From the NCBI GenBank assembly GCA_000002435.2, contig CM018790.1: DNA of 64,000 nucleotides; one strand, given 5' to 3'. Below, one piece after another: positions 1 through 19,031 of this stretch; positions within the stretch are counted from its first letter, which is position 1; each line of letters starts with the position of its first letter. A program made the position numbers and the translations under genes. This DNA comes from Giardia intestinalis. Taxonomy: Eukaryota. The notes beneath the pieces are model-generated. The model was not told the origin of the DNA. It did no database searches and worked only from the letters and a program-made list of their open reading frames with translations.

Positions 1-1
1 T

Positions 2-1060: not shown

Positions 1061-1512
1061 GCGGTTTTTTAATCCTTTGTGGTGTTCGCTCTGTATCAGC
1101 TTGCAGCATCGTTCTGTTAGAATGTCTTCTTGTAGACACTGGTTAGACTGTTGAACACTTTGACAGTTGGTGGATAATAGCCAGAGGTATAACTCAGGAA
1201 GCACTGCATCGTTCTAAATTGTGGGGTGATGCATCTGTTGACAGAATAGTATAAAACAATCCGCTTTGCATCGACTTACTCTTGTTCCACTAGGGTTGGT
1301 TCGCCAACTTTTGCCCGAGTAAATCCCTCACGCAGGCGTCACGCTAAGAACTTCCTCGCTTGTTCACCATCCGAAGCCAGGGAATCGAGGTTCGGACGTC
1401 ATACCATTCTGATGACAAAAGAAGAACCTCATGCTTCCTCCTCCAAGATGAGTGTAGGTGCAACGGAGAGCTTGAAGCCAGTGATGGCACTAATTCCTCG
1501 CCACGCTGGGCC

Positions 1513-1769
1513 GACGCTGGCCAGGATAATCGCCCGCTTGTCGAGATGGACCCACACGTGACCTATGTGAATCCCTCGACGGGTGGGTCGGAGAGGCCCT
1601 TGAGGGAATGCTTGGTTCGGATAAAAGTGGGTAGCGCTTCTGCCTGCCCATAACTGGTTGGAGGAAGGAACCCTAGAGGCACCGCGAGGAGCGGCAGCTT
1701 CCAGGGGAGGCGGGCATAGGAGTTCTTCCGCCGGAATCGAGGGCATCCGATCTTCGGATTCTGGACTCT
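1513..1769. repeat. Element A, copy 1: a 257-bp GC-rich sequence with an identical inverted partner at 8196-8444.
   Basis: Direct alignment: 1513-1753 is the exact reverse complement of 8203-8444. A then carries a 7-bp insertion (cggattc) followed by 8 more matching bases. Both copies are open in the same frame (shared 80-aa peptide MPSIPAEELLCPPPLEAAAP...), which is expected for identical GC-rich DNA and is not taken as coding evidence. Confidence 0.8.
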
Positions 1770-2157
1770 GCCTGGGAGCAAGGGGCCTGCCCTCGCTTGC
1801 CTCAACTGCCATTAAACTCTGATCTTACCCAGTGTACCGAAGCAAAATAAGGATGTCTGAGCAATTCCCACAAGCCACCAAACGTCCTCAGAAGCAAACA
1901 AGCCACGGAAACACGTTTTCTCTATATGGTTGGTTCTGGTGGCGCACTACCTGGACTGCTCTCCTCGCATCGATGCAGCTCGTCAAGAGCGAACACGGAA
2001 TATCGGGTGCGCCGTCCCCGGCCATGACGGTGTCAACGGCACTGTGCAGAGCACGCTCGGGGGCAGGGGAGCGGCCACCCCTGCTCCCGGTTGCAGGCTG
2101 GCTGGCGAAGTATACGAGGCGCACCCGCTTGTCAGGCAGCTGCACCACTAGTGACGC

Positions 2158-2172
2158 GTTTACTATCTAAGT
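2158..2172 (-). terminator. VSP-type extended polyadenylation signal (ACTTAGATAGTAAAC on the minus strand), 3-17 nt past the stop codon.
   Basis: Matches the consensus ACTYAGRTAGTRAAY described 3' of Giardia vsp genes. It contains the general Giardia poly(A) signal AGTRAAY. Confidence 0.7.
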
Positions 2173-2174
2173 AC

Positions 2175-4085
2175 CTACGCCTTTCCTCTACAAATAAACC
2201 ACCAGCAGAGGAAGCCGACGAGGCCCCCTACAACAACAATCACAGCAACGGAGATGCCTGCAATGGCGCCAGTGGAGAGCCCGCTCTTGTTCGTGCTTCC
2301 ACCAGTGCCACTGCCACTGCTGTCATCGTTCTTGACATAGCAAGTAACAGAGCCGCCATTGCCACCAGTTGGAGGGGCACAGCTTATGCAGTTCTCTACA
2401 CCAGTGATTGCGTTGGCACTAGCTCCGTCGCCTGCTGTGCACCTAAAGCACTTATTAGTAGAAAGATAATATCCAGAAAGGCAGGAAGAACAGGTCTGAG
2501 AACCGACGTTACCAGTACACTTCAAACAACCATCAGGGCATGTAGGACAGGCTTGTCCTTTGGGATCTGCTCCACTTGCTACGCACATAGTACACTTTCC
2601 GCCTACGGATAACGTGCATACAGAGTTGCCGGGGACCTTATTTGTATTATAGCATCCGCCCGATAACAGAGCGTAGTTTGCCCCACACTCAGTGCATTTC
2701 CCGCCACTTGCCTTACATCCGGAGGCATCCCTCGCTGTGCTGGCCACCTTAGTGCAAACGCCGTCGACTGGGGCGTACCCATCCTCGCACTGATCGCAGT
2801 ACTTCGAGCCTCCGACGTTCAGTGAGCAGCCGTCGGCCTTGCAGTGGGCCATAAAGTCTCCCGTGCACTCTTTTATGCACGTTCCTGCGTCACCAGACGA
2901 CCGACTCAGCACATACCCCGGATAGCAGGCCGTGCACGACGTTTCTGCGTTAGTACTACAGCTTGCGCATGTATTGTGACAGGAAGCGCAAATGCCGGTA
3001 CTGTCACGATTATCGGGATATGTGCCGGCAGGGCACTCCTCCAGACATGCATCATTAAGGGGGCTCAGTCTTTTGGTCTCACACCCAGAGCACGTAACCA
3101 TTGGACCTGCTCTTGCAGACGTTGCCTTGAGAGAGCATTTTGCACAATCCTCTATGCCACCATTGGCAGTATCGCTGCACTTAGCACACACCTTCTTGCC
3201 TTGTGCATCGGCTGTGGGGAAGAATCCATCCTTACACTCCTCTGCACTGACACAAGAGGCTGTCCCCGATTCTGTCTTCAGATACTTATCTGCCTGGCAC
3301 TCAGTGCACGTTGCAGGGCCGGCACTCTGTGGCTTAGTACACTTGGCGCATCCAGCGACGCCCTTCCAAGCACCAGATCCCTGAGTAGCATCTCCGCACG
3401 ATATGCAAGGGCCCTCGCTCCCCTCTGTTGCTAAGAAGTACGTCTCTGCCGTGCACGACTTGCACTTGCTGACTGTCCCGTCGGTGCAGGTCAGGCAGTT
3501 ATCTGCACATGCTGTACATGTCTTTCCTTTACTATTATCTACAAAGTATCCGCTCTCGCATGCTGTGCACGTGGCAGCCTTGGCGTTAGCATCGGCTGCT
3601 ACGTCAGGCGTGTCACACTGAGTGCAATGCGGCACGCCCTTATACTTGTGGTTGTTTTTAGCTGGTACTTCCTCCTCACTTCCGCACGGTATAGCAGACT
3701 GATGTGCATTATCTCTATCAGCATCGGGTGGCAGGAAGTATCCTTGCGCGGCTTGTGTGCACACTCCAGCAGCTGCTTGTGTACACGCTGCATTGCCAGG
3801 TTTAGTATCCTTTGAATAGCATCCTCCTTTGTACATGAAGGAGCTTCCCGTACACGTGGTGCACTTTCCTTCTGCCTTTGCATTACACACAGCGTTGTCT
3901 GTTGTGCACTTGCCGTCCGTCGGGGCAGACTCCGACCCACTATCATTGCATTGCGAGCAGTAGCTCACTCCCCCAATGGTGGCCCCGCATGTCTTGCAGG
4001 TCTCGGGACCGCCACCGGAGACGGGTGTGCACTCCTCTGTCGCCAGTTGAAGCGTGAGGCCGATCAGCAAAAATGCGTAGAACAT
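2175..4085 (-). CDS. vsp: Variant-specific surface protein (VSP), copy L. 636 aa from the first ATG (MFYAFLLIGLTLQLA signal peptide) to the CRGKA tail.
   Basis: Signal peptide. About 11% Cys arranged as CXXC/CXC pairs throughout. GGCY motifs (KGGCYSKDT, SGGCYNTNK). A Gly/Ser-rich stalk. A single C-terminal TM helix (GAIAGISVAVIVVVGGLVGFLCWWFI) followed by the VSP-invariant CRGKA, then the stop. The track ORF 2175-4313 begins at a TTG 76 codons upstream; the first ATG is at 4083-4085. Confidence 0.9.
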   Translation of the reverse strand: MFYAFLLIGLTLQLATEECTPVSGGGPETCKTCGATIGGVSYCSQCNDSGSESAPTDGKCTTDNAVCNAKAEGKCTTCTGSSFMYKGGCYSKDTKPGNAACTQAAAGVCTQAAQGYFLPPDADRDNAHQSAIPCGSEEEVPAKNNHKYKGVPHCTQCDTPDVAADANAKAATCTACESGYFVDNSKGKTCTACADNCLTCTDGTVSKCKSCTAETYFLATEGSEGPCISCGDATQGSGAWKGVAGCAKCTKPQSAGPATCTECQADKYLKTESGTASCVSAEECKDGFFPTADAQGKKVCAKCSDTANGGIEDCAKCSLKATSARAGPMVTCSGCETKRLSPLNDACLEECPAGTYPDNRDSTGICASCHNTCASCSTNAETSCTACYPGYVLSRSSGDAGTCIKECTGDFMAHCKADGCSLNVGGSKYCDQCEDGYAPVDGVCTKVASTARDASGCKASGGKCTECGANYALLSGGCYNTNKVPGNSVCTLSVGGKCTMCVASGADPKGQACPTCPDGCLKCTGNVGSQTCSSCLSGYYLSTNKCFRCTAGDGASANAITGVENCISCAPPTGGNGGSVTCYVKNDDSSGSGTGGSTNKSGLSTGAIAGISVAVIVVVGGLVGFLCWWFICRGKA

Positions 4086-7000
4086 TGTGGCTCGACGCTC
4101 TGTCACACAGAGATATAGCAGCTCCGTTCGCCAGTCCGCCCCTTCATGGCATCTGTCTGTGCTGCATGACGCACTGGCAGGGAAGGCCCTCCACAGGCCT
4201 GCGGAGAAGTGGAGTCGTACCGATTCCACTCTTATGACCTGCCGCTCCGAGCTTCTGTGACTGGCCGGCTGTGAGATGGATTGATCAGTATAGGTCTCCC
4301 CCTTATGCTGCAAGGCGTACCATAGTAGTGGCTACACGGCGGCCATGCTTCGCTCTTCGCTGTGATGTGAGGGTTTCCTGGCGACCAACTCCCCTGCTGT
4401 GCCAGTCACAATGTCTGCCAAGGAACTGCCTAGGGATCTCCTGAATGCTTGAACAGACCCAATGGAGGCCGGGCCATGAGACGTCCAGCAGCCCCGAGCC
4501 ACGGGTCACCAGCGCATGCCTCGAACACTGTTCCCCCGAGATTCCACTGTTGAAGCCCGGCAGGAGCGATGCCCCGTGGAGGATGGCTGCGTTCTATCGC
4601 GACCCACTGCGACTGTCCCCCTGCTCAGGGGCGCCGTCTGTCATACGACTCAACCCGCTTGCACCATAGACTATTGATGAGCCTGTCCCCTGTCGACTCC
4701 CACGCACTGAAGGGCCCTACTGACCACTTTAGAGACCGTCCCTCGCCGGCCGCAGACCCATCTAGGAGCCAGTGCCTGTCCATCCCCATCTGGGATAGTC
4801 CCACTGGAGTGGACAGCCTTCGGGCACGCAATGGTGTCCCAGCACCCTCAGAGCGGTGGTCCCGCCCACTTGACCGGCTCCAGCCAACCATACCATAGCG
4901 TCTCTCACATAAGGAGTATCCCGCACACTGGAGAAAAGGCAACGTCGAGGCGGCCAGCGCTGTCGGGCCGCCCGCTCCCTGCTGGCAAAGAATAGCGGGA
5001 CCGTAAACAACCTGGGCTATCACTACTCGGCTCAGAGTGCTCAGCTCCTGGAATCGTGGCCGAGAGTGATCATTTGGGCAAGGCACGCAGCGTTGCTATC
5101 GGAGGCACTCTTGTGTTCGAGAGCCTTCCAATAAGACCGGTCCTGCCTGGTGCCAAAGAATGGGCTGTATGCTGGTCAACTGAACTGAAGATTGATGGTA
5201 GTGTTTATGGACAGCAAGCTAGGAAAGTCAGTGGCCTCTAGATTTCATGTCACATTGAGCAACCCACTATACGAAAGCTTGATATCTCAAATAATCAGCT
5301 GACGTTACGAAGTGCTTGGTAGTTTGATAACCATGTGGAGGTGAGACAGTGAGAGAGTCGTAAAGCAGCTTGCAGGCAGAGACGCTGAGGTGCGCAGCGA
5401 TCTGGTCTATCAAGTCTCTGTTGAGTGCACAAGGAATGCTCGAATGTAGTAAACTGGCCGGCCCTCTTTATAGCAGGCAAGGGCTTCTATCTGCACTGTA
5501 CAGTTATGGGATATACCCTTGCAGAATTAGTAAAAACACCCATATAAACAGCACTGAGTGCTTGGGATTTACGCCGGTGAGCAAGAGCTGATTGTGCCAC
5601 CTTGGTTGGCAAGTACTTCAAACTGTGCAACGCATACACCAATCCTTTGGTCAAAGTGAAGGCGACAGTCCTCATGGCACTATAAAATCAACCATGTGAA
5701 TCGTGGGAGCCTCATCTGGTGGCTCGTCTATTGCGGAAAGACGCAATTGAGGAACTGCTGGATAGCAAACATGCTGCCTGTTATCAGGTTACACAGTATA
5801 CCTCTACGACAGAGTCTTTATGCACACGTCGACAAATAGCCGAACACCTTTAAGATTCATAACAAGCAAACACTCAAGAAAGCCTGTGGTATTTCAAATG
5901 CACAAACTCAAAAATCAACCTCCAACCTATCTGTAGACACAATGCTTCAGAGTCGGAGGCCAAAAAGACACCGTGTGCGTCCTTGCTGCAATTCGGATCT
6001 GTAATTAGCATCTCTAGCGCTAGCCTTGCCCCACTAATCTGCTGGTCATTCCTACCTTCTCTGTGCGAACCAGCTCTCCAGGAACCACCGTGCACGGATA
6101 GCCTCCTGTACGCCCAAATAGCATCATTCTTTGTTGAGGTGTGTCACGAAGGGCTAGGTGTTATAAGGTGAGTGCGACTAGAGGCAAAGCCTTCCTGCAG
6201 GCCCGTCTAACACCAGCAATGGGCATCCAAACATGTGCACGGGCCCTTGGCGAGTGCACTGTAATCTAGGCCGGTCAGCACACTAGGCTTGTGACACTTG
6301 GTGCATAGATTTCTGTTTTTAGTTATAAGTCTGGGGATTGTGTCTTACCTTGAAAGGCAGTAGAGTGCTTTGCAGGGCCTTTCTGGGTATACAGCTATCG
6401 CTATAGCTAATGGATGAACAGCAATAAAGACTCTATGCTTAAACAGAGGCATTTCTGATGCAACCAAGTGCTGTCTTCCATCAATAGCAGACAGCTCAAA
6501 CAGGCGGTGTCCACTCTATCATCAGACCTTATGCGGCGTGTGTGCATTATTAGAGAAGCTTCTGTAATCTCTGCTCAGTCTGTTGGGCAGGTACAGCCCA
6601 AGTGTAACGAAGACGGTGGTGGAGGCAGTCACCGGCGCAAGGCAATGAGGCGTATGGCTCAGCACAACAATTCGTTTTTAGAAGCCCTAGGCCTCCAAGA
6701 CGAGCATAGCATACTGTCTGCACATGCAATTCCTCTTTCACGCTGCTTACTCCTATGAGCAGTTGCGATACATCGCATGCCAGAAAACGGCGTAGAGGGT
6801 TCCCAGACTATTGGACCAGTAGACCGAACTGACAAGGGTAGCTAGCCATGCATGCAGAAGCTCTGTCCTGGGGGCAGTGGGTGCGACGGCTGCCTCAAGT
6901 TTTTTAGTATCCAGACACAGGCTAATTACGTGTATATCGAGGGGTCGTTCTGGCTGATCTGGCTATGGCTGCACAGACGATGCAGAGCAATAACCCGGTC

Positions 7001-7609
7001 ACCACCTCAGTTCCCTGTCTGTTCTGAGCTCCAAGTCACGACCAACCAGCGAAGAATGATCTTCTTCGCCCTACATAGAGCTCTCCTAGACAGATATGCT
7101 CCCAGGTGTGGCTAGCCAACATTAGGGGCTACTCGTAGCCGGCGTTCCTCAATACTTGCCCAGTCTCACTTACATCTGCATTCACTTTGGACGCCAGAGG
7201 ATGCTGGGCTAAACATGTATTTACAAAGGGCACATATGATGACAGAAGGACGTAGTCATCTCCTGAACTTCCCTAACTTAGTTGGGCAACGTGCCCTTCA
7301 GAATGCACGATGGAGCTCACTGGTAGATGCATCGTCACAGCTTCGATGTCTTAGAATGCTTGATTGGCCGACAGTGATAACGCTCCTCTTCTGCCATATA
7401 ATCTGCCGCTTCCTGTCTAAGGGTATTGATCACTAACTATGTATAGCACTTTTCTTGGTTGCCATTATAGGTGTACCTCTTGATACTTGGGTTACCTGTT
7501 CTTCGCTGCACTGTTCTATTATCCCCTGCGGCAGGAGCTATATCGAAATCCTTGGTCGGCATATCTTGGGATCACCTCCCGCGCTCATATCGTCGTAGAG
7601 CACTGGTCC

Positions 7610-10600
7610 TCAGGTCGTCCCCAGCCATTGTGAGAGCCACACTATATGACCAAATGCGGGGCTTATTCCGCTCCGGATGCCTTGCCTGCCGGCGTGCCCT
7701 CTGGCTTGCCGACGCCTGTGGATGGAGACGCGTCGCTGCAGCCACACAGTTATTTACGCATCTTAGAAGCGCCCGTACTGGACAGCGTAGGGTTTTGCTT
7801 ATTTAGTACAGCTCCGTGATGCAGAAGACTCTAAAAGGAGGCCTGGGAACCCAGTCCAGTCCGGAGGGGAGGCATGCCGCGGAGTTATCCATTTCTCATT
7901 GAGGTCTAAAACGTCAGCGGACCACGGGAGGTCTCTCGCCACAGCAGCCGGCTGGCATTCTGTCACCTTATTACGGATATGAAGGCTGCCCACATGAGTC
8001 AACGCCGAAGCAAGACGTCTGGTCTGACAGAACTGCTGGGCAGAGCAGGTGGCAGAGCTGATATATTGAGAGATTTACTCTCCGTTTCACCGGGGCGGGG
8101 TTGCTACCTGCTATCTGAGTGGTCTCCCATGCGAGCCACCGCCTCCCTGGGCAAGCGGGTATCTCTCGCCCTTGCATCGGCTGAGATCCGAACCTAGAGT
8201 CCAAGATCGGATGCCCTCGATTCCGGCGGAAGAACTCCTATGCCCGCCTCCCCTGGAAGCTGCCGCTCCTCGCGGTGCCTCTAGGGTTCCTTCCTCCAAC
8301 CAGTTATGGGCAGGCAGAAGCGCTACCCACTTTTATCCGAACCAAGCATTCCCTCAAGGGCCTCTCCGACCCACCCGTCGAGGGATTCACATAGGTCACG
8401 TGTGGGTCCATCTCGACAAGCGGGCGATTATCCTGGCCAGCGTCAGCTTAGCATGATGAGAGGTTGGCGCCATCACCAGCTACATGCCTTCAGTCGCCTT
8501 CTCTATCGCCTTGAGAGAAGAAGCATCCTCCTTTGTCGTCAAAATGGGACAACATCCGAACCTCGATTCCCAGACTTCGGATGGTGAACAGGCGAAGGAG
8601 CGCCCAATATGGCACCTGCGTGAGGGATTTACTCGGATAGCAGCTACGGCGTCTGGCTGCTTGTTTCTCCTACAAGCCTAGTAATTGACCAGGGTTGCTT
8701 TACAGTCGTGGAGACACTGCTGCGTCTCTCTAAGTCTTTTAGAGAGACGATCCAGTTTAGTGTAGAAGGAATGAGCGCGACCCAGCCCGTGCCTACGTGT
8801 TGCTCTACGGTTTGCTGCTCCTGCTTGCTGTCTTCGTTTCCCTGAAAGCAGCCACGGTGGCTCTCTGGAGCAATCGCTTGCATCCATCCACAACCCTAGG
8901 CGTTACGACTTGGAAGGCCATGTCATCGCATAAGCTCTATGGAAGGCATTTACTAGCCATGGTAGATGGAGGTCGCTGCCTCTGAGGCCCTGATGCATGC
9001 TGAGCCTAAAAGACGCTGACTCCACTGGCTGCAGGAGCCGCCACTTACTGTGACAGCTTGAAGTAGCACCACTTCGAGGACAGAGGATATCCACAGCTCG
9101 AGAGGACGCGGCGGCAGAGAACAGACTCAGGCATAGCCACAAACAGACCCACCAATCCGGATGGATGAGGGCGGACACCTAATTGGCAAGCCGTTGGCTA
9201 GTCTATGTAGAGGCGCATCCTCTAACAGCAGGGTCTGGCACACGAAGTCTAAGGGCGACCATGGGTACACAGCAGACGGGCAGAAGCCTGCTTCGTAGTG
9301 TGTGGAGGCTTTGATGAGGCAATCCTAAGTTTAATGAAGGCCGGGACCGGTAGCTCTAACAGACAGTTCCCCAGCTTTGGAATACTTGCGTCACCATAGA
9401 GTCAATACAGTGAGTTGTCTGTAGTAACAAGTCTGTGGAGATAAGAGCAGACTCCTATCAAACTAACTAGATACTAATGGATCCTAGCGTGAACTCGCAG
9501 TATAGGGACTTGCAGAAGGCACCGCGTTCTACTCATCTGAGTAAGACAGCCAACTGAGTGAACCCATAATGCAAAGACCACGAGGCCAAGGGCTCCTCCA
9601 TAGCCTAAAAGCTAACATCACAAGAGTCACACTGGCCGCGGAGTGCTTTCCGATCCCCTGAGGCTTAGCGGCATGGCTTCGTTCCCTAGTACGGCCAGAC
9701 AGACTTGAGACACGAGATACTCTGTCTGCTGCAAAGCACACCTTCTGGCAGCGACTCAGGTCTATCGGGTAACTCTCGCATAGAGGAGGCAGATGGGTCC
9801 GAAGCGCCATCGCTCGCCTGATAACTCTGAGTCATGGAAGAGGAAGCTGTTTATGAGAATGCACCCCTAGTGTGTAGATCCGCGTTTTCATGCGAAGTGA
9901 GAAGACGCTCCTGGATTGATCTGTCATGCCTCCATCTGCTCTAGCAAAATGTAACGCAACGCATGCACTATTGATCTATGTCGCCATGACAGCCATAGTT
10001 AACTAGCCAACGAGACAATCGCTAGAGGAACCCTTGGACACTTATGAGCAGAGGCGCAGCCTGAGAGCAGTCATCTGGCCGCTAAGTGATGGAGGAGCAG
10101 ACACAGCGCTGCTCCGTGCAATCACACTCTCTCACTTTAGTGGCTATGTGGGCAGCCCCGGTCTTGTGAGGTCTGCGGATAAGCTGCTTCATCCCATAAA
10201 GCATCCAGAATTACTACAGGTGACCCCTGCAAAGTCTTACTGCGGGAGGTCATGCTTCACTAAAGACGTGGCTCTGGAAACACATTGACTGATGGGAGCT
10301 CCCCTCTGGCGTTCTTAGGGGCGGTGTCTGTCTACAATAGCTCCTACACCCACTGCCTGTCTATGGCCCAACTCTGCCGTATTAGACCCCTGTCTCCACT
10401 GAATGGCTGATTCGAGGGTGATGCTGGTTACCAGGATGATACCTTACATTGACTGCTAAGAGCTGTCTTTGCATATATTACGCTGCTTAGTGTTGCACTC
10501 AAACGAAGCTTGCTATTGCTCCGCAACTATTGTGGATTGGAAGAACAGTTAGCATTCTCAGTAGTTCATGTGGTAATTGGAAGCCAGGGAAGTCTAAGTT

Positions 10601-13001
10601 GAGTGGGAAAGCTTGAAGAGGGAGTAGCAGCTCTTGTACTCCTCTGCTGAGTGATGCAGAGAACTGGCTCGTTTCTTAGCGTCGATAGTTCTTCAGAATG
10701 CACGTTTCTTTGTTTAAGACTTGCATGCTTCGGATTGCCCTCTGTTGCCAGCAGAGCAGCCACCGCCCTGTGTGTCTCCTTCAGACATATGCCCATCTAT
10801 AGTGGCGTCTCCTGTCTTTTCTCTGGAGAGGCATAACAGTCCCAATCCAGACACCTTGCTCTCAGCACACACCTCGTATCTATCAGAGGTCAAGTGTTCG
10901 TCAGCCATATCCCATAAGCATCAGTACTGTGCCACTATGTTACTTCCTGTCCCTCTTGAGGGGCGCGCTCTGACCATCCCAGTGTCTCTATGATAGGAGA
11001 GCTGTGGATCCAGAGGCGGTCATGGCTTTCTGGCCCTCTCTGCTGTCCAGTAGACTGCAAGAGTGCCCTTCGGGGGTCGGTCCCCTAACCTTCTGTTCTC
11101 TCGAGGAAGTGGTCCTTGGATAGCGCCACTTGGATGATTCCCGAAGCCTCACTGCACGGGTGCTGCTTTACAAACACTCCTGGCTGAAGCTGGACCCGAA
11201 TCCTCCTAGAGTTACCTGCTGGCCCAGTCCTTGATTGCTATCAGCAGAGGTCTCAACCTTCCAAGGACATCTCGGGGACAATACGTTTGGCCCACGTCAG
11301 CGCCACTTCCTGGCAGGGGCATGCAGAAGATCTGCTCCCTCTTGTAGATCCATCATTGGTATCGAGAGTACTGCGCCTGTCACTCTCGCTGGAAGTGTCG
11401 ATAGATGGTGCCCCGTATCTATCCCATTGAAGAGTTGGAGGTCCGCCAGGACAGCGAAGATGATCCCATCAGGGCTGTGATCATATACCCGCCATTATAG
11501 CAACCATAGTGTAGATAAGACAACTGTCTGGGCCCTGCAACTCCCGGCGTAGGACGCCAGGAGGCATAGCTAATTCAAGCTAATAAAGGCCACCCCTGTC
11601 ATAGCAGGCTCAGAAAGTAGAGAATGAGTGACGTACCTGGTGTCCATCCACGCACGCATGCAGCCTGGAAGCCCTGCTCAAAGCACCGAGGCCTGCAGGG
11701 GTGTGGCATCCGAACAGGCCCGACAGTTATGGTTGTTTCTGAAAACAGCCAACATGACTGGATGAGGACATAAGAACTCACGGAGACCCTCACAGTCTTG
11801 ATGTCTGGGAGAACGTGGGGGCTGACCACTCCAAGATTGTCCATCTCATGAGCTGGCTTTCGACAGTAGGCATAACAAAAAAGTGACCTCCAGTCATACA
11901 CAATCTCATGCCAGCCCATCGCAGGATAGACCATCATTGCCTGACCTACCAATCCGTCCATTTCTGTGATAGATGTAACAGTACTTCATCATCGGCCACC
12001 TTGCGGCTACACAGTCAGGGTATTATCCGTGACATTGCTTGCTGATGCTCTGCATAGGGCCCTGTCCTCGTAGAGTGACAGATGAGCCTCTCTGTATATG
12101 TGGATCTAATGATATGGCTCCTCTGGGACTTTCCACCTCTGCTTCTGTCTAGTATCTCACATCAATATGAAGTGGCCAGTGGCTGTTATTGGATCTTGCA
12201 GCATAACTATTACACATTTGTGTGCCCATCAAGACTACCATATAGGGTCACACAAGCCGAGAGCTCTGTCAGGCAGTTATTGGACTCGATGTCAAGATGG
12301 CAGGAGGACAACACTCCCAAGGGTCGCTGAAGCATGAAGCGTTATATAGATCGTATAGCACACCAGCTGCAGCACAACGGCAGAGGGCATACCTAGATGT
12401 AGATAGCGCCTACAGCAAGCGGCATGCTGTCGTTGTCGGTACAACGGGCATAGTGGCTACTGGACCCACGCTTTAGTAGCCTCGATTGGAGCAATTGCAC
12501 AGCGAAGGAGCAGGGCGTAGGGGCATGGGCACCAACCGGTCGAGCAACGTGTACATGTACGAGCACAGTTATGAGTCTCGCCTACACTGTTGGGTGGTGC
12601 TCTGCTTTGATGCTGACTCAGCGGACCAACCCTCACATCTGTGACAGAAGGTAGGACATCGTGCTGATCATGCGGTGAGAGGCCTTCATGCGGGCCTTTA
12701 ACTAGCCTAGGCAGCACTTAGAAGCGGCCAACCCTCTCGTACCACGTCTCCTCTCTAAATAGGACTGAATGCATCCATGGTACCCTTCTAGGGTCTTAGT
12801 ATCATGGAGCCCGTGCCAGGCAGGAAGGTTCTATATTACATGGCATGCGAGCTGCTAGGATGTGTAAACACTTGCGTGGTTGTAGCGACGCGTCCTCATC
12901 AGCAAGTGTCAGAGTACATCGGTGGACAGGTGCATATTAAGTCAGGCACTCTGTGTGCGATCATGCATCACAGCTCTCGTAACGGGCCACAGGCAGCCTG
13001 G
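7610..13001. other. Unique 5.4-kb spacer between the inverted-repeat arms. No ORF longer than 120 aa in any frame.
   Basis: The six-frame track shows only short, unrecognisable ORFs with no mirror-image copies. It contains element A' (8196-8444). No recognisable RT, endonuclease, rRNA or telomeric (TAGGG)n signatures were seen by eye. Confidence 0.6.
8196..8444. repeat. Element A', the inverted copy of element A (1513-1769), lying 587 bp inside the spacer from the inner end of the left arm.
   Basis: Exact reverse complement of A apart from one 7-bp indel. With A it brackets a 6.9-kb segment (1513-8444) that holds VSP copy L and its whole arm. No corresponding copy flanks the right arm. Confidence 0.8.
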
Positions 13002-16000
13002 GGACCAGTGCTCTACGACGATATGAGCGCGGGAGGTGATCCCAAGATATGCCGACCAAGGATTTCGATATAGCTCCTGCCGCAGGGGATAATAGAACAG
13101 TGCAGCGAAGAACAGGTAACCCAAGTATCAAGAGGTACACCTATAATGGCAACCAAGAAAAGTGCTATACATAGTTAGTGATCAATACCCTTAGACAGGA
13201 AGCGGCAGATTATATGGCAGAAGAGGAGCGTTATCACTGTCGGCCAATCAAGCATTCTAAGACATCGAAGCTGTGACGATGCATCTACCAGTGAGCTCCA
13301 TCGTGCATTCTGAAGGGCACGTTGCCCAACTAAGTTAGGGAAGTTCAGGAGATGACTACGTCCTTCTGTCATCATATGTGCCCTTTGTAAATACATGTTT
13401 AGCCCAGCATCCTCTGGCGTCCAAAGTGAATGCAGATGTAAGTGAGACTGGGCAAGTATTGAGGAACGCCGGCTACGAGTAGCCCCTAATGTTGGCTAGC
13501 CACACCTGGGAGCATATCTGTCTAGGAGAGCTCTATGTAGGGCGAAGAAGATCATTCTTCGCTGGTTGGTCGTGACTTGGAGCTCAGAACAGACAGGGAA
13601 CTGAGGTGGTGACCGGGTTATTGCTCTGCATCGTCTGTGCAGCCATAGCCAGATCAGCCAGAACGACCCCTCGATATACACGTAATTAGCCTGTGTCTGG
13701 ATACTAAAAAACTTGAGGCAGCCGTCGCACCCACTGCCCCCAGGACAGAGCTTCTGCATGCATGGCTAGCTACCCTTGTCAGTTCGGTCTACTGGTCCAA
13801 TAGTCTGGGAACCCTCTACGCCGTTTTCTGGCATGCGATGTATCGCAACTGCTCATAGGAGTAAGCAGCGTGAAAGAGGAATTGCATGTGCAGACAGTAT
13901 GCTATGCTCGTCTTGGAGGCCTAGGGCTTCTAAAAACGAATTGTTGTGCTGAGCCATACGCCTCATTGCCTTGCGCCGGTGACTGCCTCCACCACCGTCT
14001 TCGTTACACTTGGGCTGTACCTGCCCAACAGACTGAGCAGAGATTACAGAAGCTTCTCTAATAATGCACACACGCCGCATAAGGTCTGATGATAGAGTGG
14101 ACACCGCCTGTTTGAGCTGTCTGCTATTGATGGAAGACAGCACTTGGTTGCATCAGAAATGCCTCTGTTTAAGCATAGAGTCTTTATTGCTGTTCATCCA
14201 TTAGCTATAGCGATAGCTGTATACCCAGAAAGGCCCTGCAAAGCACTCTACTGCCTTTCAAGGTAAGACACAATCCCCAGACTTATAACTAAAAACAGAA
14301 ATCTATGCACCAAGTGTCACAAGCCTAGTGTGCTGACCGGCCTAGATTACAGTGCACTCGCCAAGGGCCCGTGCACATGTTTGGATGCCCATTGCTGGTG
14401 TTAGACGGGCCTGCAGGAAGGCTTTGCCTCTAGTCGCACTCACCTTATAACACCTAGCCCTTCGTGACACACCTCAACAAAGAATGATGCTATTTGGGCG
14501 TACAGGAGGCTATCCGTGCACGGTGGTTCCTGGAGAGCTGGTTCGCACAGAGAAGGTAGGAATGACCAGCAGATTAGTGGGGCAAGGCTAGCGCTAGAGA
14601 TGCTAATTACAGATCCGAATTGCAGCAAGGACGCACACGGTGTCTTTTTGGCCTCCGACTCTGAAGCATTGTGTCTACAGATAGGTTGGAGGTTGATTTT
14701 TGAGTTTGTGCATTTGAAATACCACAGGCTTTCTTGAGTGTTTGCTTGTTATGAATCTTAAAGGTGTTCGGCTATTTGTCGACGTGTGCATAAAGACTCT
14801 GTCGTAGAGGTATACTGTGTAACCTGATAACAGGCAGCATGTTTGCTATCCAGCAGTTCCTCAATTGCGTCTTTCCGCAATAGACGAGCCACCAGATGAG
14901 GCTCCCACGATTCACATGGTTGATTTTATAGTGCCATGAGGACTGTCGCCTTCACTTTGACCAAAGGATTGGTGTATGCGTTGCACAGTTTGAAGTACTT
15001 GCCAACCAAGGTGGCACAATCAGCTCTTGCTCACCGGCGTAAATCCCAAGCACTCAGTGCTGTTTATATGGGTGTTTTTACTAATTCTGCAAGGGTATAT
15101 CCCATAACTGTACAGTGCAGATAGAAGCCCTTGCCTGCTATAAAGAGGGCCGGCCAGTTTACTACATTCGAGCATTCCTTGTGCACTCAACAGAGACTTG
15201 ATAGACCAGATCGCTGCGCACCTCAGCGTCTCTGCCTGCAAGCTGCTTTACGACTCTCTCACTGTCTCACCTCCACATGGTTATCAAACTACCAAGCACT
15301 TCGTAACGTCAGCTGATTATTTGAGATATCAAGCTTTCGTATAGTGGGTTGCTCAATGTGACATGAAATCTAGAGGCCACTGACTTTCCTAGCTTGCTGT
15401 CCATAAACACTACCATCAATCTTCAGTTCAGTTGACCAGCATACAGCCCATTCTTTGGCACCAGGCAGGACCGGTCTTATTGGAAGGCTCTCGAACACAA
15501 GAGTGCCTCCGATAGCAACGCTGCGTGCCTTGCCCAAATGATCACTCTCGGCCACGATTCCAGGAGCTGAGCACTCTGAGCCGAGTAGTGATAGCCCAGG
15601 TTGTTTACGGTCCCGCTATTCTTTGCCAGCAGGGAGCGGGCGGCCCGACAGCGCTGGCCGCCTCGACGTTGCCTTTTCTCCAGTGTGCGGGATACTCCTT
15701 ATGTGAGAGACGCTATGGTATGGTTGGCTGGAGCCGGTCAAGTGGGCGGGACCACCGCTCTGAGGGTGCTGGGACACCATTGCGTGCCCGAAGGCTGTCC
15801 ACTCCAGTGGGACTATCCCAGATGGGGATGGACAGGCACTGGCTCCTAGATGGGTCTGCGGCCGGCGAGGGACGGTCTCTAAAGTGGTCAGTAGGGCCCT
15901 TCAGTGCGTGGGAGTCGACAGGGGACAGGCTCATCAATAGTCTATGGTGCAAGCGGGTTGAGTCGTATGACAGACGGCGCCCCTGAGCAGGGGGACAGTC

Positions 16001-16525
16001 GCAGTGGGTCGCGATAGAACGCAGCCATCCTCCACGGGGCATCGCTCCTGCCGGGCTTCAACAGTGGAATCTCGGGGGAACAGTGTTCGAGGCATGCGCT
16101 GGTGACCCGTGGCTCGGGGCTGCTGGACGTCTCATGGCCCGGCCTCCATTGGGTCTGTTCAAGCATTCAGGAGATCCCTAGGCAGTTCCTTGGCAGACAT
16201 TGTGACTGGCACAGCAGGGGAGTTGGTCGCCAGGAAACCCTCACATCACAGCGAAGAGCGAAGCATGGCCGCCGTGTAGCCACTACTATGGTACGCCTTG
16301 CAGCATAAGGGGGAGACCTATACTGATCAATCCATCTCACAGCCGGCCAGTCACAGAAGCTCGGAGCGGCAGGTCATAAGAGTGGAATCGGTACGACTCC
16401 ACTTCTCCGCAGGCCTGTGGAGGGCCTTCCCTGCCAGTGCGTCATGCAGCACAGACAGATGCCATGAAGGGGCGGACTGGCGAACGGAGCTGCTATATCT
16501 CTGTGTGACAGAGCGTCGAGCCACA

Positions 16526-18436
16526 ATGTTCTACGCATTTTTGCTGATCGGCCTCACGCTTCAACTGGCGACAGAGGAGTGCACACCCGTCTCCGGTGGC
16601 GGTCCCGAGACCTGCAAGACATGCGGGGCCACCATTGGGGGAGTGAGCTACTGCTCGCAATGCAATGATAGTGGGTCGGAGTCTGCCCCGACGGACGGCA
16701 AGTGCACAACAGACAACGCTGTGTGTAATGCAAAGGCAGAAGGAAAGTGCACCACGTGTACGGGAAGCTCCTTCATGTACAAAGGAGGATGCTATTCAAA
16801 GGATACTAAACCTGGCAATGCAGCGTGTACACAAGCAGCTGCTGGAGTGTGCACACAAGCCGCGCAAGGATACTTCCTGCCACCCGATGCTGATAGAGAT
16901 AATGCACATCAGTCTGCTATACCGTGCGGAAGTGAGGAGGAAGTACCAGCTAAAAACAACCACAAGTATAAGGGCGTGCCGCATTGCACTCAGTGTGACA
17001 CGCCTGACGTAGCAGCCGATGCTAACGCCAAGGCTGCCACGTGCACAGCATGCGAGAGCGGATACTTTGTAGATAATAGTAAAGGAAAGACATGTACAGC
17101 ATGTGCAGATAACTGCCTGACCTGCACCGACGGGACAGTCAGCAAGTGCAAGTCGTGCACGGCAGAGACGTACTTCTTAGCAACAGAGGGGAGCGAGGGC
17201 CCTTGCATATCGTGCGGAGATGCTACTCAGGGATCTGGTGCTTGGAAGGGCGTCGCTGGATGCGCCAAGTGTACTAAGCCACAGAGTGCCGGCCCTGCAA
17301 CGTGCACTGAGTGCCAGGCAGATAAGTATCTGAAGACAGAATCGGGGACAGCCTCTTGTGTCAGTGCAGAGGAGTGTAAGGATGGATTCTTCCCCACAGC
17401 CGATGCACAAGGCAAGAAGGTGTGTGCTAAGTGCAGCGATACTGCCAATGGTGGCATAGAGGATTGTGCAAAATGCTCTCTCAAGGCAACGTCTGCAAGA
17501 GCAGGTCCAATGGTTACGTGCTCTGGGTGTGAGACCAAAAGACTGAGCCCCCTTAATGATGCATGTCTGGAGGAGTGCCCTGCCGGCACATATCCCGATA
17601 ATCGTGACAGTACCGGCATTTGCGCTTCCTGTCACAATACATGCGCAAGCTGTAGTACTAACGCAGAAACGTCGTGCACGGCCTGCTATCCGGGGTATGT
17701 GCTGAGTCGGTCGTCTGGTGACGCAGGAACGTGCATAAAAGAGTGCACGGGAGACTTTATGGCCCACTGCAAGGCCGACGGCTGCTCACTGAACGTCGGA
17801 GGCTCGAAGTACTGCGATCAGTGCGAGGATGGGTACGCCCCAGTCGACGGCGTTTGCACTAAGGTGGCCAGCACAGCGAGGGATGCCTCCGGATGTAAGG
17901 CAAGTGGCGGGAAATGCACTGAGTGTGGGGCAAACTACGCTCTGTTATCGGGCGGATGCTATAATACAAATAAGGTCCCCGGCAACTCTGTATGCACGTT
18001 ATCCGTAGGCGGAAAGTGTACTATGTGCGTAGCAAGTGGAGCAGATCCCAAAGGACAAGCCTGTCCTACATGCCCTGATGGTTGTTTGAAGTGTACTGGT
18101 AACGTCGGTTCTCAGACCTGTTCTTCCTGCCTTTCTGGATATTATCTTTCTACTAATAAGTGCTTTAGGTGCACAGCAGGCGACGGAGCTAGTGCCAACG
18201 CAATCACTGGTGTAGAGAACTGCATAAGCTGTGCCCCTCCAACTGGTGGCAATGGCGGCTCTGTTACTTGCTATGTCAAGAACGATGACAGCAGTGGCAG
18301 TGGCACTGGTGGAAGCACGAACAAGAGCGGGCTCTCCACTGGCGCCATTGCAGGCATCTCCGTTGCTGTGATTGTTGTTGTAGGGGGCCTCGTCGGCTTC
18401 CTCTGCTGGTGGTTTATTTGTAGAGGAAAGGCGTAG
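16526..18436 (+). CDS. vsp: Variant-specific surface protein (VSP), copy R. Identical 636-aa product to copy L.
   Basis: ATG at 16526 (ccacaATGttctacgcattt). Ends ...FICRGKA, then TAG at 18434-18436. Protein identical to copy L. Confidence 0.9.
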   Translation: MFYAFLLIGLTLQLATEECTPVSGGGPETCKTCGATIGGVSYCSQCNDSGSESAPTDGKCTTDNAVCNAKAEGKCTTCTGSSFMYKGGCYSKDTKPGNAACTQAAAGVCTQAAQGYFLPPDADRDNAHQSAIPCGSEEEVPAKNNHKYKGVPHCTQCDTPDVAADANAKAATCTACESGYFVDNSKGKTCTACADNCLTCTDGTVSKCKSCTAETYFLATEGSEGPCISCGDATQGSGAWKGVAGCAKCTKPQSAGPATCTECQADKYLKTESGTASCVSAEECKDGFFPTADAQGKKVCAKCSDTANGGIEDCAKCSLKATSARAGPMVTCSGCETKRLSPLNDACLEECPAGTYPDNRDSTGICASCHNTCASCSTNAETSCTACYPGYVLSRSSGDAGTCIKECTGDFMAHCKADGCSLNVGGSKYCDQCEDGYAPVDGVCTKVASTARDASGCKASGGKCTECGANYALLSGGCYNTNKVPGNSVCTLSVGGKCTMCVASGADPKGQACPTCPDGCLKCTGNVGSQTCSSCLSGYYLSTNKCFRCTAGDGASANAITGVENCISCAPPTGGNGGSVTCYVKNDDSSGSGTGGSTNKSGLSTGAIAGISVAVIVVVGGLVGFLCWWFICRGKA

Positions 18437-18438
18437 GT

Positions 18439-18453
18439 ACTTAGATAGTAAAC
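18439..18453 (+). terminator. VSP extended polyadenylation signal ACTTAGATAGTAAAC.
   Basis: Begins 3 nt after the stop codon and contains AGTAAAC (AGTRAAY). Confidence 0.7.
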
Positions 18454-19031
18454 GCGTCACTAGTGGTGCAGCTGCCTGACAAGCGGGTGCGCCTCGTATA
18501 CTTCGCCAGCCAGCCTGCAACCGGGAGCAGGGGTGGCCGCTCCCCTGCCCCCGAGCGTGCTCTGCACAGTGCCGTTGACACCGTCATGGCCGGGGACGGC
18601 GCACCCGATATTCCGTGTTCGCTCTTGACGAGCTGCATCGATGCGAGGAGGGGTGCTTGATGTGGGCAGCTTTGGTACTGTCCATGTGATAGGTGGCTAT
18701 CCAAGACTCAGAGTGGGAAGCTCACGGAGGCCACTGGGTCGCGCTGGCCACCATTTCCAGACGCTCACACCTAGATGTCATTAGGCACTACCGGGTGCTC
18801 AGAGACGCTCACTCCATCTTCATCATCATGGACCGCTGAGATCGGTGCCTCAAGATGTGATTGCCGATTGAGCAAGAACCGGTAACCCTACCGATACAGT
18901 GCTCTCCATCATGGAGCAGTGAGTGTCTACAATTATATATTGACCACTACTGTGATAGCGCGGAGCTTCCGGGGTCAACCACAAGTAAAGGGTAAGCTTT
19001 CTTAATGGAATTGCCACTCACAAGACAGAGA

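What the first reader, a model, noticed from the sequence alone, without database searches (positions are those of the whole stretch)
1961..18650. Two identical VSP genes sit head-to-head in a perfect 5.65-kb inverted repeat around a 5.4-kb spacer
Arms 1961-7609 and 13002-18650 are exact reverse complements; every ORF has a mirror twin and both ends were checked base by base. Each arm holds a complete VSP gene (636 aa, CRGKA tail, extended poly(A) signal) plus about 3.5 kb of its upstream flank. The two start codons face each other across 12.4 kb. Zero divergence over 5.6 kb implies very recent duplication or ongoing gene conversion. Any transcript crossing the locus on either strand would contain antisense VSP, then the spacer, then sense VSP, so it could fold into a multi-kb hairpin. 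That is of interest because VSP antigenic switching in Giardia is proposed to be RNAi-dependent. The arms would also allow recombinational flip-flop of the spacer.
Basis: partly seen in the sequence, partly recalled or inferred. Interest (0 to 1): 0.75.

Follow-up and report, generated by a model that had tools for sequence, protein, structure and literature searches.

The report
Known inverted VSP gene pair, Giardia
This is a real 5.65-kb perfect inverted duplication carrying two identical surface-antigen (VSP) genes on chromosome 2 of Giardia intestinalis WB; the pair is already listed in the reference-genome paper, and its arms look kept identical by gene conversion rather than built to make hairpin RNA.

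Summary
Arms 1961-7609 and 13002-18650 are exact reverse complements (5,649 nt, 0 mismatches). Each holds a 636-aa VSP gene plus 3,524 nt of upstream DNA. The start codons are 12,440 nt apart.

The window is Giardia intestinalis WB chromosome 2. This pair (GL50803_0050359 / GL50803_00134710, '<- ->', 636 aa, 12,440 bp, nothing between) is already in Table 2 of Xu et al. 2020. It is also in a 2022 preprint's supplementary table, and identical inverted VSP pairs were described in 2010. It is the largest such pair.

What I can add:
- The 12.4 kb between the genes has no detectable coding or RNA-family content.
- The right junction is shared with assemblage E, so arm 2 is the original copy.
- The derived left junction is at the same base in the AII isolate DH. 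WB and DH arms differ by about 5% while the WB arms differ by 0, so the arms were homogenised by gene conversion.
- A roughly 60% identical relic of the repeat continues into the spacer.

The hairpin-RNA idea is geometrically possible but has no support here. Spacer flip-flop is plausible but untested.

The parts
1961..7609 (.). Arm 1 of the perfect inverted repeat (derived copy)
   Evidence: Exact reverse complement of 13002-18650. Its outer junction at 1961 is absent from assemblage E (P15) but present at the same base in DH.
13002..18650 (.). Arm 2 of the perfect inverted repeat (original copy)
   Evidence: The P15 contig is colinear across the 18650 junction into the right flank.
2175..4085 (-). 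VSP gene copy GL50803_0050359 (KAE8302464.1 / XP_001708597.2), 636 aa
   Evidence: ORF and translation; Pfam VSP; accessions.
16526..18436 (+). VSP gene copy GL50803_00134710 = vsp167 (KAE8302465.1 / XP_001704663.1), 636 aa
   Evidence: Initiator CAATGTT.
18439..18453 (+). Extended VSP poly(A) signal ACTTAGATAGTAAAC (mirror copy at 2172-2158 on the - strand)
   Evidence: The same motif is listed for both genes in the 2022 preprint supplement.
13002..16525 (.). 3,524-nt non-coding upstream region carried inside each arm (mirror copy 4086-7609)
   Evidence: No Pfam hit in any of six frames, no Rfam hit, and no VSP remnant by tblastn. ORF lengths are as in shuffled sequence.
7610..13001 (.). Unique 5,392-nt spacer with no recognisable gene
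   Evidence: The preprint's supplementary table lists 'None / None' between the pair.
7711..8012 (.). Diverged inverted-repeat relic, left half. It pairs with 12603-12910 at about 60% identity (first 60 nt about 80%), in register with the arms.
   Evidence: Smith-Waterman score 42 against 14.9 +/- 1.1 for shuffles.
12603..12910 (.). Diverged inverted-repeat relic, right half
1315..1762 (.). Repeat X, in the intergenic DNA between DinF and arm 1
   Evidence: 86.6% identical to the reverse complement of 8196-8636.
8196..8636 (.). Repeat X', an inverted copy of X inside the spacer. X and X' bracket arm 1.
10763..11117 (.). Spacer segment conserved with the DinF upstream region of P15, marking the right part of the spacer as ancestral DinF-VSP intergenic DNA
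   Evidence: Smith-Waterman score 73 against 15.2 +/- 1.3 for shuffles, same orientation.
1..1204 (-). 5' part of the left neighbour, the DinF/MATE transporter gene (KAE8302463.1), which runs off the window
   Evidence: tblastn at 99% to the DH orthologue; cluster look-up.
19032..20747 (-). Right neighbour, hypothetical protein GL50803_00112059, followed by a NEK kinase at 20801-25189 (+)

Best explanation
The locus is a large inverted segmental duplication (palindrome) on chromosome 2 of Giardia intestinalis WB. It carries the VSP gene vsp167 and 3.5 kb of its gene-free upstream DNA in both arms. It is the largest member of the known class of identical inverted VSP pairs.

Arm 2, next to GL50803_112059 and a NEK kinase, is the original gene. 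Arm 1, together with roughly 4 kb of other DNA, was inserted between the DinF transporter gene and the ancestral VSP upstream region. This happened after assemblage A split from assemblage E and before sub-assemblages AI and AII split.

Since then the arms have been kept identical by intrachromosomal arm-to-arm gene conversion (concerted evolution). The conversion tract ends abruptly at 7609/13002, and beyond it only a relic of about 60% identity survives.

The consequence is two identical, outward-facing copies of one surface antigen gene, each with the same upstream region.

Shown here: the structure, the gene content, the polarity of the two junctions, the shared derived junction in DH, and paralogue identity exceeding orthologue identity. 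Inferred: gene conversion as the homogenising mechanism, and the order of events. No special RNA-level function is needed to explain the structure.
For: - Perfect arms and VSP gene features.
- The organism and the two consecutive protein accessions.
- The pair is listed as chr 2, 50359/134710, '<- ->', 636 aa, 12,440 bp, nothing between, and as 'None/None' between. The class is described in Adam 2010 and also exists in G. muris.
- P15 is colinear with arm 2 plus the right flank across 18650, but not with the arm-1 flank.
- The P15 DinF upstream region has no VSP within 3.1 kb and instead matches spacer 10763-11117.
- DH contig AHGT01000078 runs from the VSP 3' end through the 1961 junction into the DinF flank. 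DH contig AHGT01000104 runs through the 18650 junction into the right flank. Both junctions are at the same base as in WB.
- In the last 770 nt of the arm there are 0 differences between the WB copies. Both DH copies share 39 differing alignment columns against WB. The two DH copies differ from each other at 17 columns, 10 of which are confirmed by an independent metagenome scaffold.
- A diverged relic of the inverted repeat lies in register inside the spacer.
- The X/X' inverted repeat in the same locus has drifted to 87% identity. DNA outside the arms therefore does diverge.
Against: - The DH assembly is short-read and both DH contigs end inside the VSP. Sequence far from the junctions could be a collapsed consensus. 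The physical palindrome is not shown in DH.
- The DH contig with the right-flank junction continues into the 111806/myotubularin locus rather than toward NEK. A 1.58-kb 99% duplicate makes its chromosomal assignment ambiguous.
- The relic (about 40% diverged) and X/X' (13% diverged) do not fit one event with one clock, so the history is more complex than a single duplication.
- Only 770 nt of the 5,649-nt arm could be compared between isolates.
- Short-read base correction in the WB assembly could in principle hide a few real arm differences, but not several percent.
Confidence: 0.8

Rival explanations
1. The duplication is very recent and specific to the WB lineage, so the arms are identical simply because there has been no time to diverge and no gene conversion is needed.
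For: Zero differences over 5,649 nt. Adam et al. 2010 suggested that the identical pairs may be recent duplications.
Against: The derived arm-1/DinF-side junction is at the identical nucleotide in DH (AII). There the arm is about 5% diverged from WB, or about 2.6% if the C-terminal patch is excluded. A diverged relic of the repeat extends into the spacer.
Confidence: 0.06
2. The palindrome is an assembly artefact, either a false duplication or a chimeric fold-back in the PacBio assembly.
For: Perfect identity and a palindromic shape are typical of some long-read artefacts. Duplicated VSPs were once questioned as assembly artefacts.
Against: - There is a 5.4-kb unique spacer, and the two outer flanks are different from each other.
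- The 2007 Sanger assembly independently held a full copy next to 112059 (XP_001704663.1) and a 137-aa C-terminal fragment next to DinF (XP_001708597.1 beside XP_001708598.1).
- DH contigs carry both junctions.
- The PacBio data were 200x with read N50 of 12.7 kb and 10% of reads over 20 kb. The assembly was checked against optical maps.
Confidence: 0.03
3. The locus is a functional hairpin-RNA source. A long transcript crosses both arms, folds into double-stranded RNA, and is diced into small RNAs that feed VSP silencing or switching.
For: Geometry only: a transcript spanning both arms on either strand would be self-complementary. Reviews cite Dicer/RdRP-dependent control of VSP expression. 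Antisense VSP RNA exists.
Against: - The two genes are divergent, so normal transcription runs outward.
- A hairpin containing VSP sequence needs an RNA longer than 12.4 kb, which must pass AGTRAAY motifs at 5448, 9557 and 13425 (+) or 15163, 8954, 8633, 8079 and 7186 (-). That count is close to the random expectation of 2.7 for the + strand and somewhat above it for the - strand, so the motifs are not depleted.
- Antisense RNA dominates for most VSP genes, paired or unpaired.
- The pair shows only low transcript levels (about 30-75 TPM with two-hit mapping), and only when reads mapping to both copies are counted.
- The loop would be 5.4 kb, plus 7 kb of non-VSP stem.
Confidence: 0.05
4. The arms act as an invertible switch, in which recombination flips the spacer and so regulates one or both VSP copies.
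For: Perfect 5.6-kb inverted arms are good substrates for recombination. The arm-to-arm conversion inferred here implies that they interact. Many intra-isolate inversions are predicted in WB.
Against: Flipping the spacer leaves each VSP with the same 3.5-kb upstream region. The spacer has no detectable gene, RNA family or coding remnant. The locus genes do not appear in the held text of the structural-variant supplements. Isomers may exist as a neutral by-product.
Confidence: 0.03

Closest known systems
Identical inverted VSP gene pairs of Giardia intestinalis WB (Adam et al. 2010, PMC2996952; Xu et al. 2020, PMC7000408, Table 2; 2022 bioRxiv preprint 10.1101/2022.03.07.483299)
   Same: Two identical VSP ORFs in inverted orientation on one chromosome, with flanks identical up to an abrupt divergence point. 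This exact pair (50359/134710, 636 aa, 12,440 bp apart) is an entry in Xu's Table 2 and in the preprint's supplementary table of pairs.
   Different: It is the outlier of the class. The ORFs are 12.4 kb apart, against 2.5-6.3 kb for the others. The upstream identity runs 3,524 nt, against 158-729 nt. Unlike 4 of the 7 head-to-head pairs, it has no reverse-transcriptase remnant or other gene between the copies. In 2010 it was scored as a single gene, vsp167.
Identical VSP pairs in Giardia muris (Xu et al. 2020, PMC7641422)
   Same: Seven identical pairs, head-to-head or tail-to-tail, which shows the arrangement recurs across Giardia species.
   Different: The intervening DNA in G. muris carries NEK, ankyrin or zinc-finger genes or pseudogenes, whereas none is detectable here. 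The loci are not orthologous.
Large gene-bearing palindromes homogenised by arm-to-arm gene conversion, such as the human Y-chromosome palindromes P1-P8 (from my own knowledge, not looked up here)
   Same: Kilobase-scale inverted arms at essentially 100% identity around a unique spacer. The paralogous arms within a genome are more alike than the orthologous arms between lineages.
   Different: Much smaller scale, a protist antigen gene rather than testis genes, and only 770 nt of the arm could be compared between lineages here.
Hairpin-RNA (endo-siRNA) loci formed by inverted repeats in animals and plants (from my own knowledge)
   Same: Inverted duplication of a gene sequence that could in principle form intramolecular double-stranded RNA.
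   Different: Such loci are transcribed as one unit with a short loop. Here the genes face outward with a 12.4-kb gap, and no transcript or small-RNA evidence is available.

Membership tests
Giardia variant-specific surface protein (VSP, PF03302) | Cys-rich ectodomain with many CXXC motifs and a match to the Pfam VSP model | tested here: met
   PF03302 E=5.6e-83. 72 Cys, 25 CXXC and 2 GGCY motifs, matching the published values for vsp167.
Giardia variant-specific surface protein (VSP, PF03302) | N-terminal signal peptide, a C-terminal TM segment and a CRGKA tail | tested here: met
   The sequence begins MFYAFLLIGLTLQLA and ends AIAGISVAVIVVVGGLVGFLCWWFICRGKA. The signal peptide was judged by eye, not with a predictor.
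Giardia variant-specific surface protein (VSP, PF03302) | VSP initiator (YAATGTT) at the start codon and an extended poly(A) signal just after the stop | tested here: met
   CAATGTT at the ATG. ACTTAGATAGTAAAC begins 3 nt after TAG on both copies.
Identical inverted VSP pairs (Adam 2010 / Xu 2020) | Two identical ORFs in head-to-head or tail-to-tail orientation, adjacent on one chromosome | tested here: met
   Listed as such.
Identical inverted VSP pairs (Adam 2010 / Xu 2020) | Flanks identical up to an abrupt point of divergence | tested here: met
   Identity drops from 100% to the random level at 1961/18650, and to about 55-60% at 7609/13002.
Identical inverted VSP pairs (Adam 2010 / Xu 2020) | Copies separated by 2-4 kb of non-coding DNA (2010 description) | tested here: not met
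   The separation is 12,440 nt. The DNA is non-coding but 3-5 times longer than in any other pair. Xu 2020 nevertheless lists it in the class.
Palindromes maintained by arm-to-arm gene conversion | Paralogous arms within a genome are more similar than orthologous arms between lineages that share the duplication | tested here: met
   WB arm 1 vs arm 2 gives 0/771 differences. WB vs DH gives 40-45 differences in about 770 nt, and the derived junction is shared. Caveats: only the outer 770 nt could be compared, and DH is a short-read assembly.
Palindromes maintained by arm-to-arm gene conversion | Direct observation of conversion tracts or of spacer inversion isomers | not testable with these tools
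   This needs long reads or population data.
Hairpin-RNA / endo-siRNA locus | A single transcript spanning both arms | not testable with these tools
   No RNA data are available here. The sequence shows outward-facing genes and 3-5 AGTRAAY motifs per strand in between.
Hairpin-RNA / endo-siRNA locus | Dicer-sized small RNAs mapping across the arms, including their non-coding parts | not testable with these tools
   The endo-siRNA paper by Liao et al. 2014 is not held in the library.
Retrotransposon-associated head-to-head VSP pairs (4 of 7 in Xu 2020) | A reverse-transcriptase remnant between the two genes | tested here: not met
   A six-frame Pfam scan of 4086-13001 found 0 families at E<=1. 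'None' is also listed.

The most novel reading that the evidence does not exclude
Read-through transcription across the whole 16.7-kb palindrome does occur. This could start, for example, from the bidirectional DinF promoter region about 1 kb from the 3' end of the arm-1 VSP. The resulting RNA folds into a multi-kilobase hairpin and is diced into small RNAs. The locus would then be a dedicated trigger of VSP silencing rather than a passive duplicate.
Probability: 0.05. Interest if true: 0.7.

Novelty: already known. Interest (0 to 1): 0.22.

Why it matters
Identical inverted VSP pairs recur in G. intestinalis and G. muris, but why they persist is unexplained. This pair is the largest, and it has comparative anchors on both sides.

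The shared derived junction in an AII isolate, combined with zero divergence inside WB, indicates that these pairs can be old and actively homogenised rather than merely recent. That bears on three things:
- how the VSP repertoire evolves;
- how RNA-seq reads that map to both copies should be handled;
- how far short-read Giardia assemblies can be trusted at VSP loci.

It does not change the current picture of antigenic switching.

Tried and rejected
- **Short-read contigs around the NEK kinase and the 111806 paralogue.** All end at repeat boundaries (about 20,400 and 18,890), so they say nothing about the palindrome.
- **Exact look-up of the VSP.** The WB chromosome is not in that index.
- **Exact look-up of ten small ORFs from the interval.** Only trivial 1-kb contigs were returned.
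- **Two metagenome scans with exact 25-29-mers from the inner arm edge and the arm-1 junction.** No hits.
- **Homology search with the DinF N-terminus.** Nothing was found although orthologues exist. I reached them through the exact-sequence cluster look-up instead.
- **Liao et al. 2014 endo-siRNA paper.** Not held in the library.
- **Pollo et al. 2020 structural-variant supplements.** The held text contains no entry for these genes.
- **A single-event history for the relic, X/X' and the arms.** Rejected, because their divergences (about 40%, 13% and 0%) do not fit one clock.
Full report

Yes, exactly as described. The repeat finder reports one large inverted repeat in the window, with arms 1961-7614 and 12997-18650. 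A base-by-base check gives exact complementarity for 1961-7609 against 13002-18650 (5,649 nt).

Ungapped complementarity outside the arms is 24-25%, which is the random level, and the window contains no N runs. All ORFs in one arm are mirrored in the other.

The VSP copies lie at 4085..2175 (-) and 16526..18436 (+). Each encodes 636 aa and matches Pfam PF03302 at E=5.6e-83. Each has 72 Cys, 25 CXXC motifs, a C-terminal TM segment and a CRGKA tail. The start-codon context is CAATGTT, and the extended poly(A) signal ACTTAGATAGTAAAC begins 3 nt after the stop.

Each arm holds 214 nt of 3' flank, the gene, and 3,524 nt of upstream DNA. The start codons are 12,440 nt apart and the spacer is 5,392 nt.

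**2. Where is it from, and is it already known?**

Exact-sequence look-ups identify the window as Giardia intestinalis WB clone C6, in the PacBio chromosome-scale assembly. The VSP sequence carries two consecutive accessions, KAE8302464.1 and KAE8302465.1. The neighbours are GL50803_00112059 and a NEK kinase, on a 1,539,535-bp record.

Adam et al. 2010 described 14 identical inverted vsp pairs in WB (4 head-to-head, 10 tail-to-tail). These had 2.2-3.8 kb between ORFs and flanks identical up to an abrupt divergence point 139-729 nt from the coding region.

Xu et al. 2020 list 19 duplicated pairs in their Table 2. One row reads: chromosome 2, genes 50359 and 134710, '<- ->', 636 aa, distance 12,440 bp, nothing between. 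That is this locus, with exactly the distance I measured.

A 2022 preprint lists the same pair with 'None / None' for pseudogenes or retrotransposon remnants between the copies. It confirms that 134710 = XP_001704663.1 and 50359 = XP_001708597.2. It also reports only low transcript levels (about 30-75 TPM), and only when reads mapping to both copies are counted.

In 2010 the gene was scored as a single complete gene, vsp167 (clade II, 636 aa, 72 Cys, 25 CXXC). At that time the second copy was only a 137-aa C-terminal fragment at a contig end. G. muris also has seven identical inverted pairs.

So both the kind of structure and this particular instance are already catalogued. It stands out as the largest pair by a wide margin.

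**3. Is it an assembly artefact?**

This is unlikely, for four reasons:
- The two outer flanks differ from each other, and there is a 5.4-kb unique spacer. A fold-back chimera would not produce that.
- The 2007 Sanger assembly independently contained a full copy next to 112059. It also contained a C-terminal fragment (XP_001708597.1) next to the DinF transporter (XP_001708598.1).
- Isolate DH has separate contigs carrying each junction.
- The PacBio data were 200x with read N50 of 12.7 kb and 10% of reads over 20 kb. The assembly was checked against optical maps.

**4. What lies between the genes?**

Nothing recognisable. I scanned all six frames of 4086-13001, the non-redundant part of the interval, with stop codons masked. 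This gave no Pfam family at E<=1.

Rfam, tRNA and tandem-repeat searches were also empty. tblastn with the VSP, the neighbouring proteins and a P15 kinase found no remnants. The longest open frame is 156 codons, against 164 +/- 28 in shuffled sequence; a coding control region of the same size reaches 856 codons.

The locus is GC-richer (52-54%) than the rest of the window (47%). Unlike four of the seven head-to-head pairs in WB, it has no reverse-transcriptase remnant.

**5. Internal anatomy not previously described**

- *A relic of the repeat inside the spacer.* About 100 nt beyond each perfect arm, the spacer carries a diverged inverted repeat in register with the arms. It spans 7711-8012 against 12603-12910, at about 60% identity overall and about 80% over the first 60 nt. 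The Smith-Waterman score is 42, against 14.9 +/- 1.1 for dinucleotide shuffles. The inverted repeat therefore once extended further, and the step from 100% to about 60% is abrupt.
- *The X/X' repeat.* A 440-nt repeat X (1315-1762, between DinF and arm 1) has an inverted copy X' at 8196-8636 in the spacer, at 86.6% identity. The two copies bracket arm 1. I cannot fit the relic (about 40% diverged), X/X' (13%) and the arms (0%) into one event with one clock, so that part of the history remains unexplained.

**6. Which copy is the original?**

The assemblage E (P15) contig that carries the NEK kinase and the 112059 orthologue is colinear with WB through the right flank. It continues across position 18650 into the 3' end of the VSP. 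The arm-1 flank, by contrast, is unrelated to P15.

The P15 contig carrying DinF has 3.1 kb of upstream DNA with no VSP. In WB the VSP stop codon is only about 970 nt from DinF. The only significant match of that P15 upstream DNA is to spacer positions 10763-11117, in the same orientation (Smith-Waterman score 73 against 15 +/- 1.3).

So arm 2 and the right part of the spacer are ancestral. Window positions roughly 1262-10762 (X, arm 1, the left relic, X' and the left part of the spacer) are an insertion relative to assemblage E, or else were deleted in P15.

**7. Recent duplication or gene conversion?**

In DH (sub-assemblage AII), contig AHGT01000078 starts inside the VSP C-terminus. It runs through the arm-1 junction into the DinF flank, matching window 2768 to 1 at 97% identity. 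Contig AHGT01000104 starts inside the VSP C-terminus and runs through the arm-2 junction into the right flank, matching window 17882 to 20471 at 96%. Both junctions are at the same nucleotide as in WB.

The event that created arm 1 therefore predates the AI/AII split. Without homogenisation, the WB arms should differ by at least as much as WB differs from DH.

The counts over the last 770 nt of the arm are as follows:

| Comparison | Differences |
|---|---|
| WB arm 1 vs WB arm 2 | 0 |
| WB vs DH, shared by both DH copies | 39 alignment columns |
| DH copy 1 vs DH copy 2 | 17 alignment columns |

Of the 17 columns at which the DH copies differ, most lie in the 214-nt 3' flank. An independent metagenome scaffold carrying the arm-2 junction confirms 10 of them.

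Of the 39 shared differences, 22 cluster in the 110 nt that encode the TM segment and tail. This looks like a patch copied from another VSP and then spread to both copies.

This pattern is the signature of concerted evolution. Gene conversion between arms is the simplest mechanism, but that step is inferred rather than observed.

*Caveats.* DH is a short-read assembly and both contigs end inside the repeat. Only 770 nt of the 5,649-nt arm could be compared. The physical palindrome is not shown in DH.

The right-flank contig in DH continues into the 111806/myotubularin locus rather than toward NEK. Window 18890-20471 is 99% identical to that other locus, and different assemblies join it both ways. 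The inference needs only the shared arm-1 junction, and this ambiguity does not affect that.

**8. The hairpin-RNA and flip-flop ideas**

But the two genes face outward, so ordinary transcription leaves the locus.

An RNA containing any of both VSP sequences must exceed 12.4 kb. It must also pass AGTRAAY motifs at 5448, 9557 and 13425 on the + strand, or 15163, 8954, 8633, 8079 and 7186 on the - strand. The random expectation is 2.7 per strand, so these motifs are not depleted.

Antisense transcripts are reported for most VSP genes regardless of pairing; only 12-20% of VSP genes have more sense than antisense RNA. The published RNAi model invokes an RNA-dependent RNA polymerase rather than genomic hairpins. 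No small-RNA data were available to me. I rate a functional hairpin at about 5%.

*Spacer flip-flop.* This is a plausible by-product of arm-to-arm recombination. However, it would leave each gene with the same 3.5-kb upstream region, and the spacer has no detectable functional content. A regulatory switch is therefore unlikely. The isomers could be detected with the existing PacBio reads.

**9. Verdict**

The structural observation is confirmed in full.

The feature is an already catalogued member, and the largest one, of the known class of identical inverted VSP pairs. The increments from this analysis are:
- the exact extent of the arms;
- the absence of any coding or RNA-family content in the 12.4-kb interval;
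- the polarity of the duplication;
- its age relative to the assemblage splits;
- evidence for concerted evolution;
- the diverged relic of the repeat inside the spacer.

Interest is modest.

Noticed in passing
window 18890-20471: The 3' 1.58 kb of GL50803_112059 and its flank is 99% identical to the GL50803_111806 locus, which appears to lie on a different chromosome record (1.97 Mb vs 1.54 Mb). Six short-read contigs from the 111806 side all stop at the 18890 equivalent. In AII-like assemblies both the myotubularin/111806 side (DH L015, metagenome L017) and the NEK/112059 side (metagenome L018) run on toward the VSP right flank. It is therefore unclear which chromosome carries that VSP copy in AII.
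   Followed up: partly
window 1315-1762 and 8196-8636: A 440-nt inverted repeat (X/X', 86.6% identical) brackets arm 1. WB X against DH X is 95.8% identical, so the X/X' split is older than the AI/AII split and has not been homogenised. It could have mediated an inversion of arm 1. Its origin is unexplained.
   Followed up: partly
L013 12619-13524 (P15) vs window 18764-18851: Assemblage E has a 301-aa protein kinase gene between the 112059 orthologue and the VSP. WB keeps only a remnant of about 88 nt, so the gene was lost in A or gained in E.
   Followed up: partly
L015 (DH contig AHGT01000104), equivalent of window 18056: The DH VSP copy with the right-flank junction has CAA changed to TAA (an in-frame stop). 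The other DH copy and a metagenome scaffold do not, so this is a possible pseudogene or a sequencing error.
   Followed up: no
window 18320-18429 (mirror copy 2182-2291): 22 of the 39 fixed WB/DH differences in the last 770 nt of the arm fall in the 110 nt encoding the TM segment and CRGKA tail. Most appear synonymous, since the encoded TM/tail peptide changes at only one residue. This suggests a patch copied from another VSP and then spread to both copies.
   Followed up: partly
L023 (GS, assemblage B, contig ACGJ01002372): The assemblage B contig carrying DinF ends only 302 nt upstream of the gene. This is consistent with a repeat boundary there, but gives no information about a VSP copy.
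   Followed up: no
window 1-1204 (-): the search for homologous proteins returned nothing for the DinF/MATE N-terminus, although an 18-member cluster with WB, DH, P15 and GS orthologues exists in the same collection. This is a sensitivity gap in the tool, not a biological finding.
   Followed up: yes
window 1-21000 vs 21000-64000: The VSP locus, including its non-coding parts, is GC-richer (52-54%) than the ordinary gene-dense remainder of the window (47%). This matches published remarks that the surroundings of VSP genes are gene-poor and compositionally distinct.
   Followed up: no
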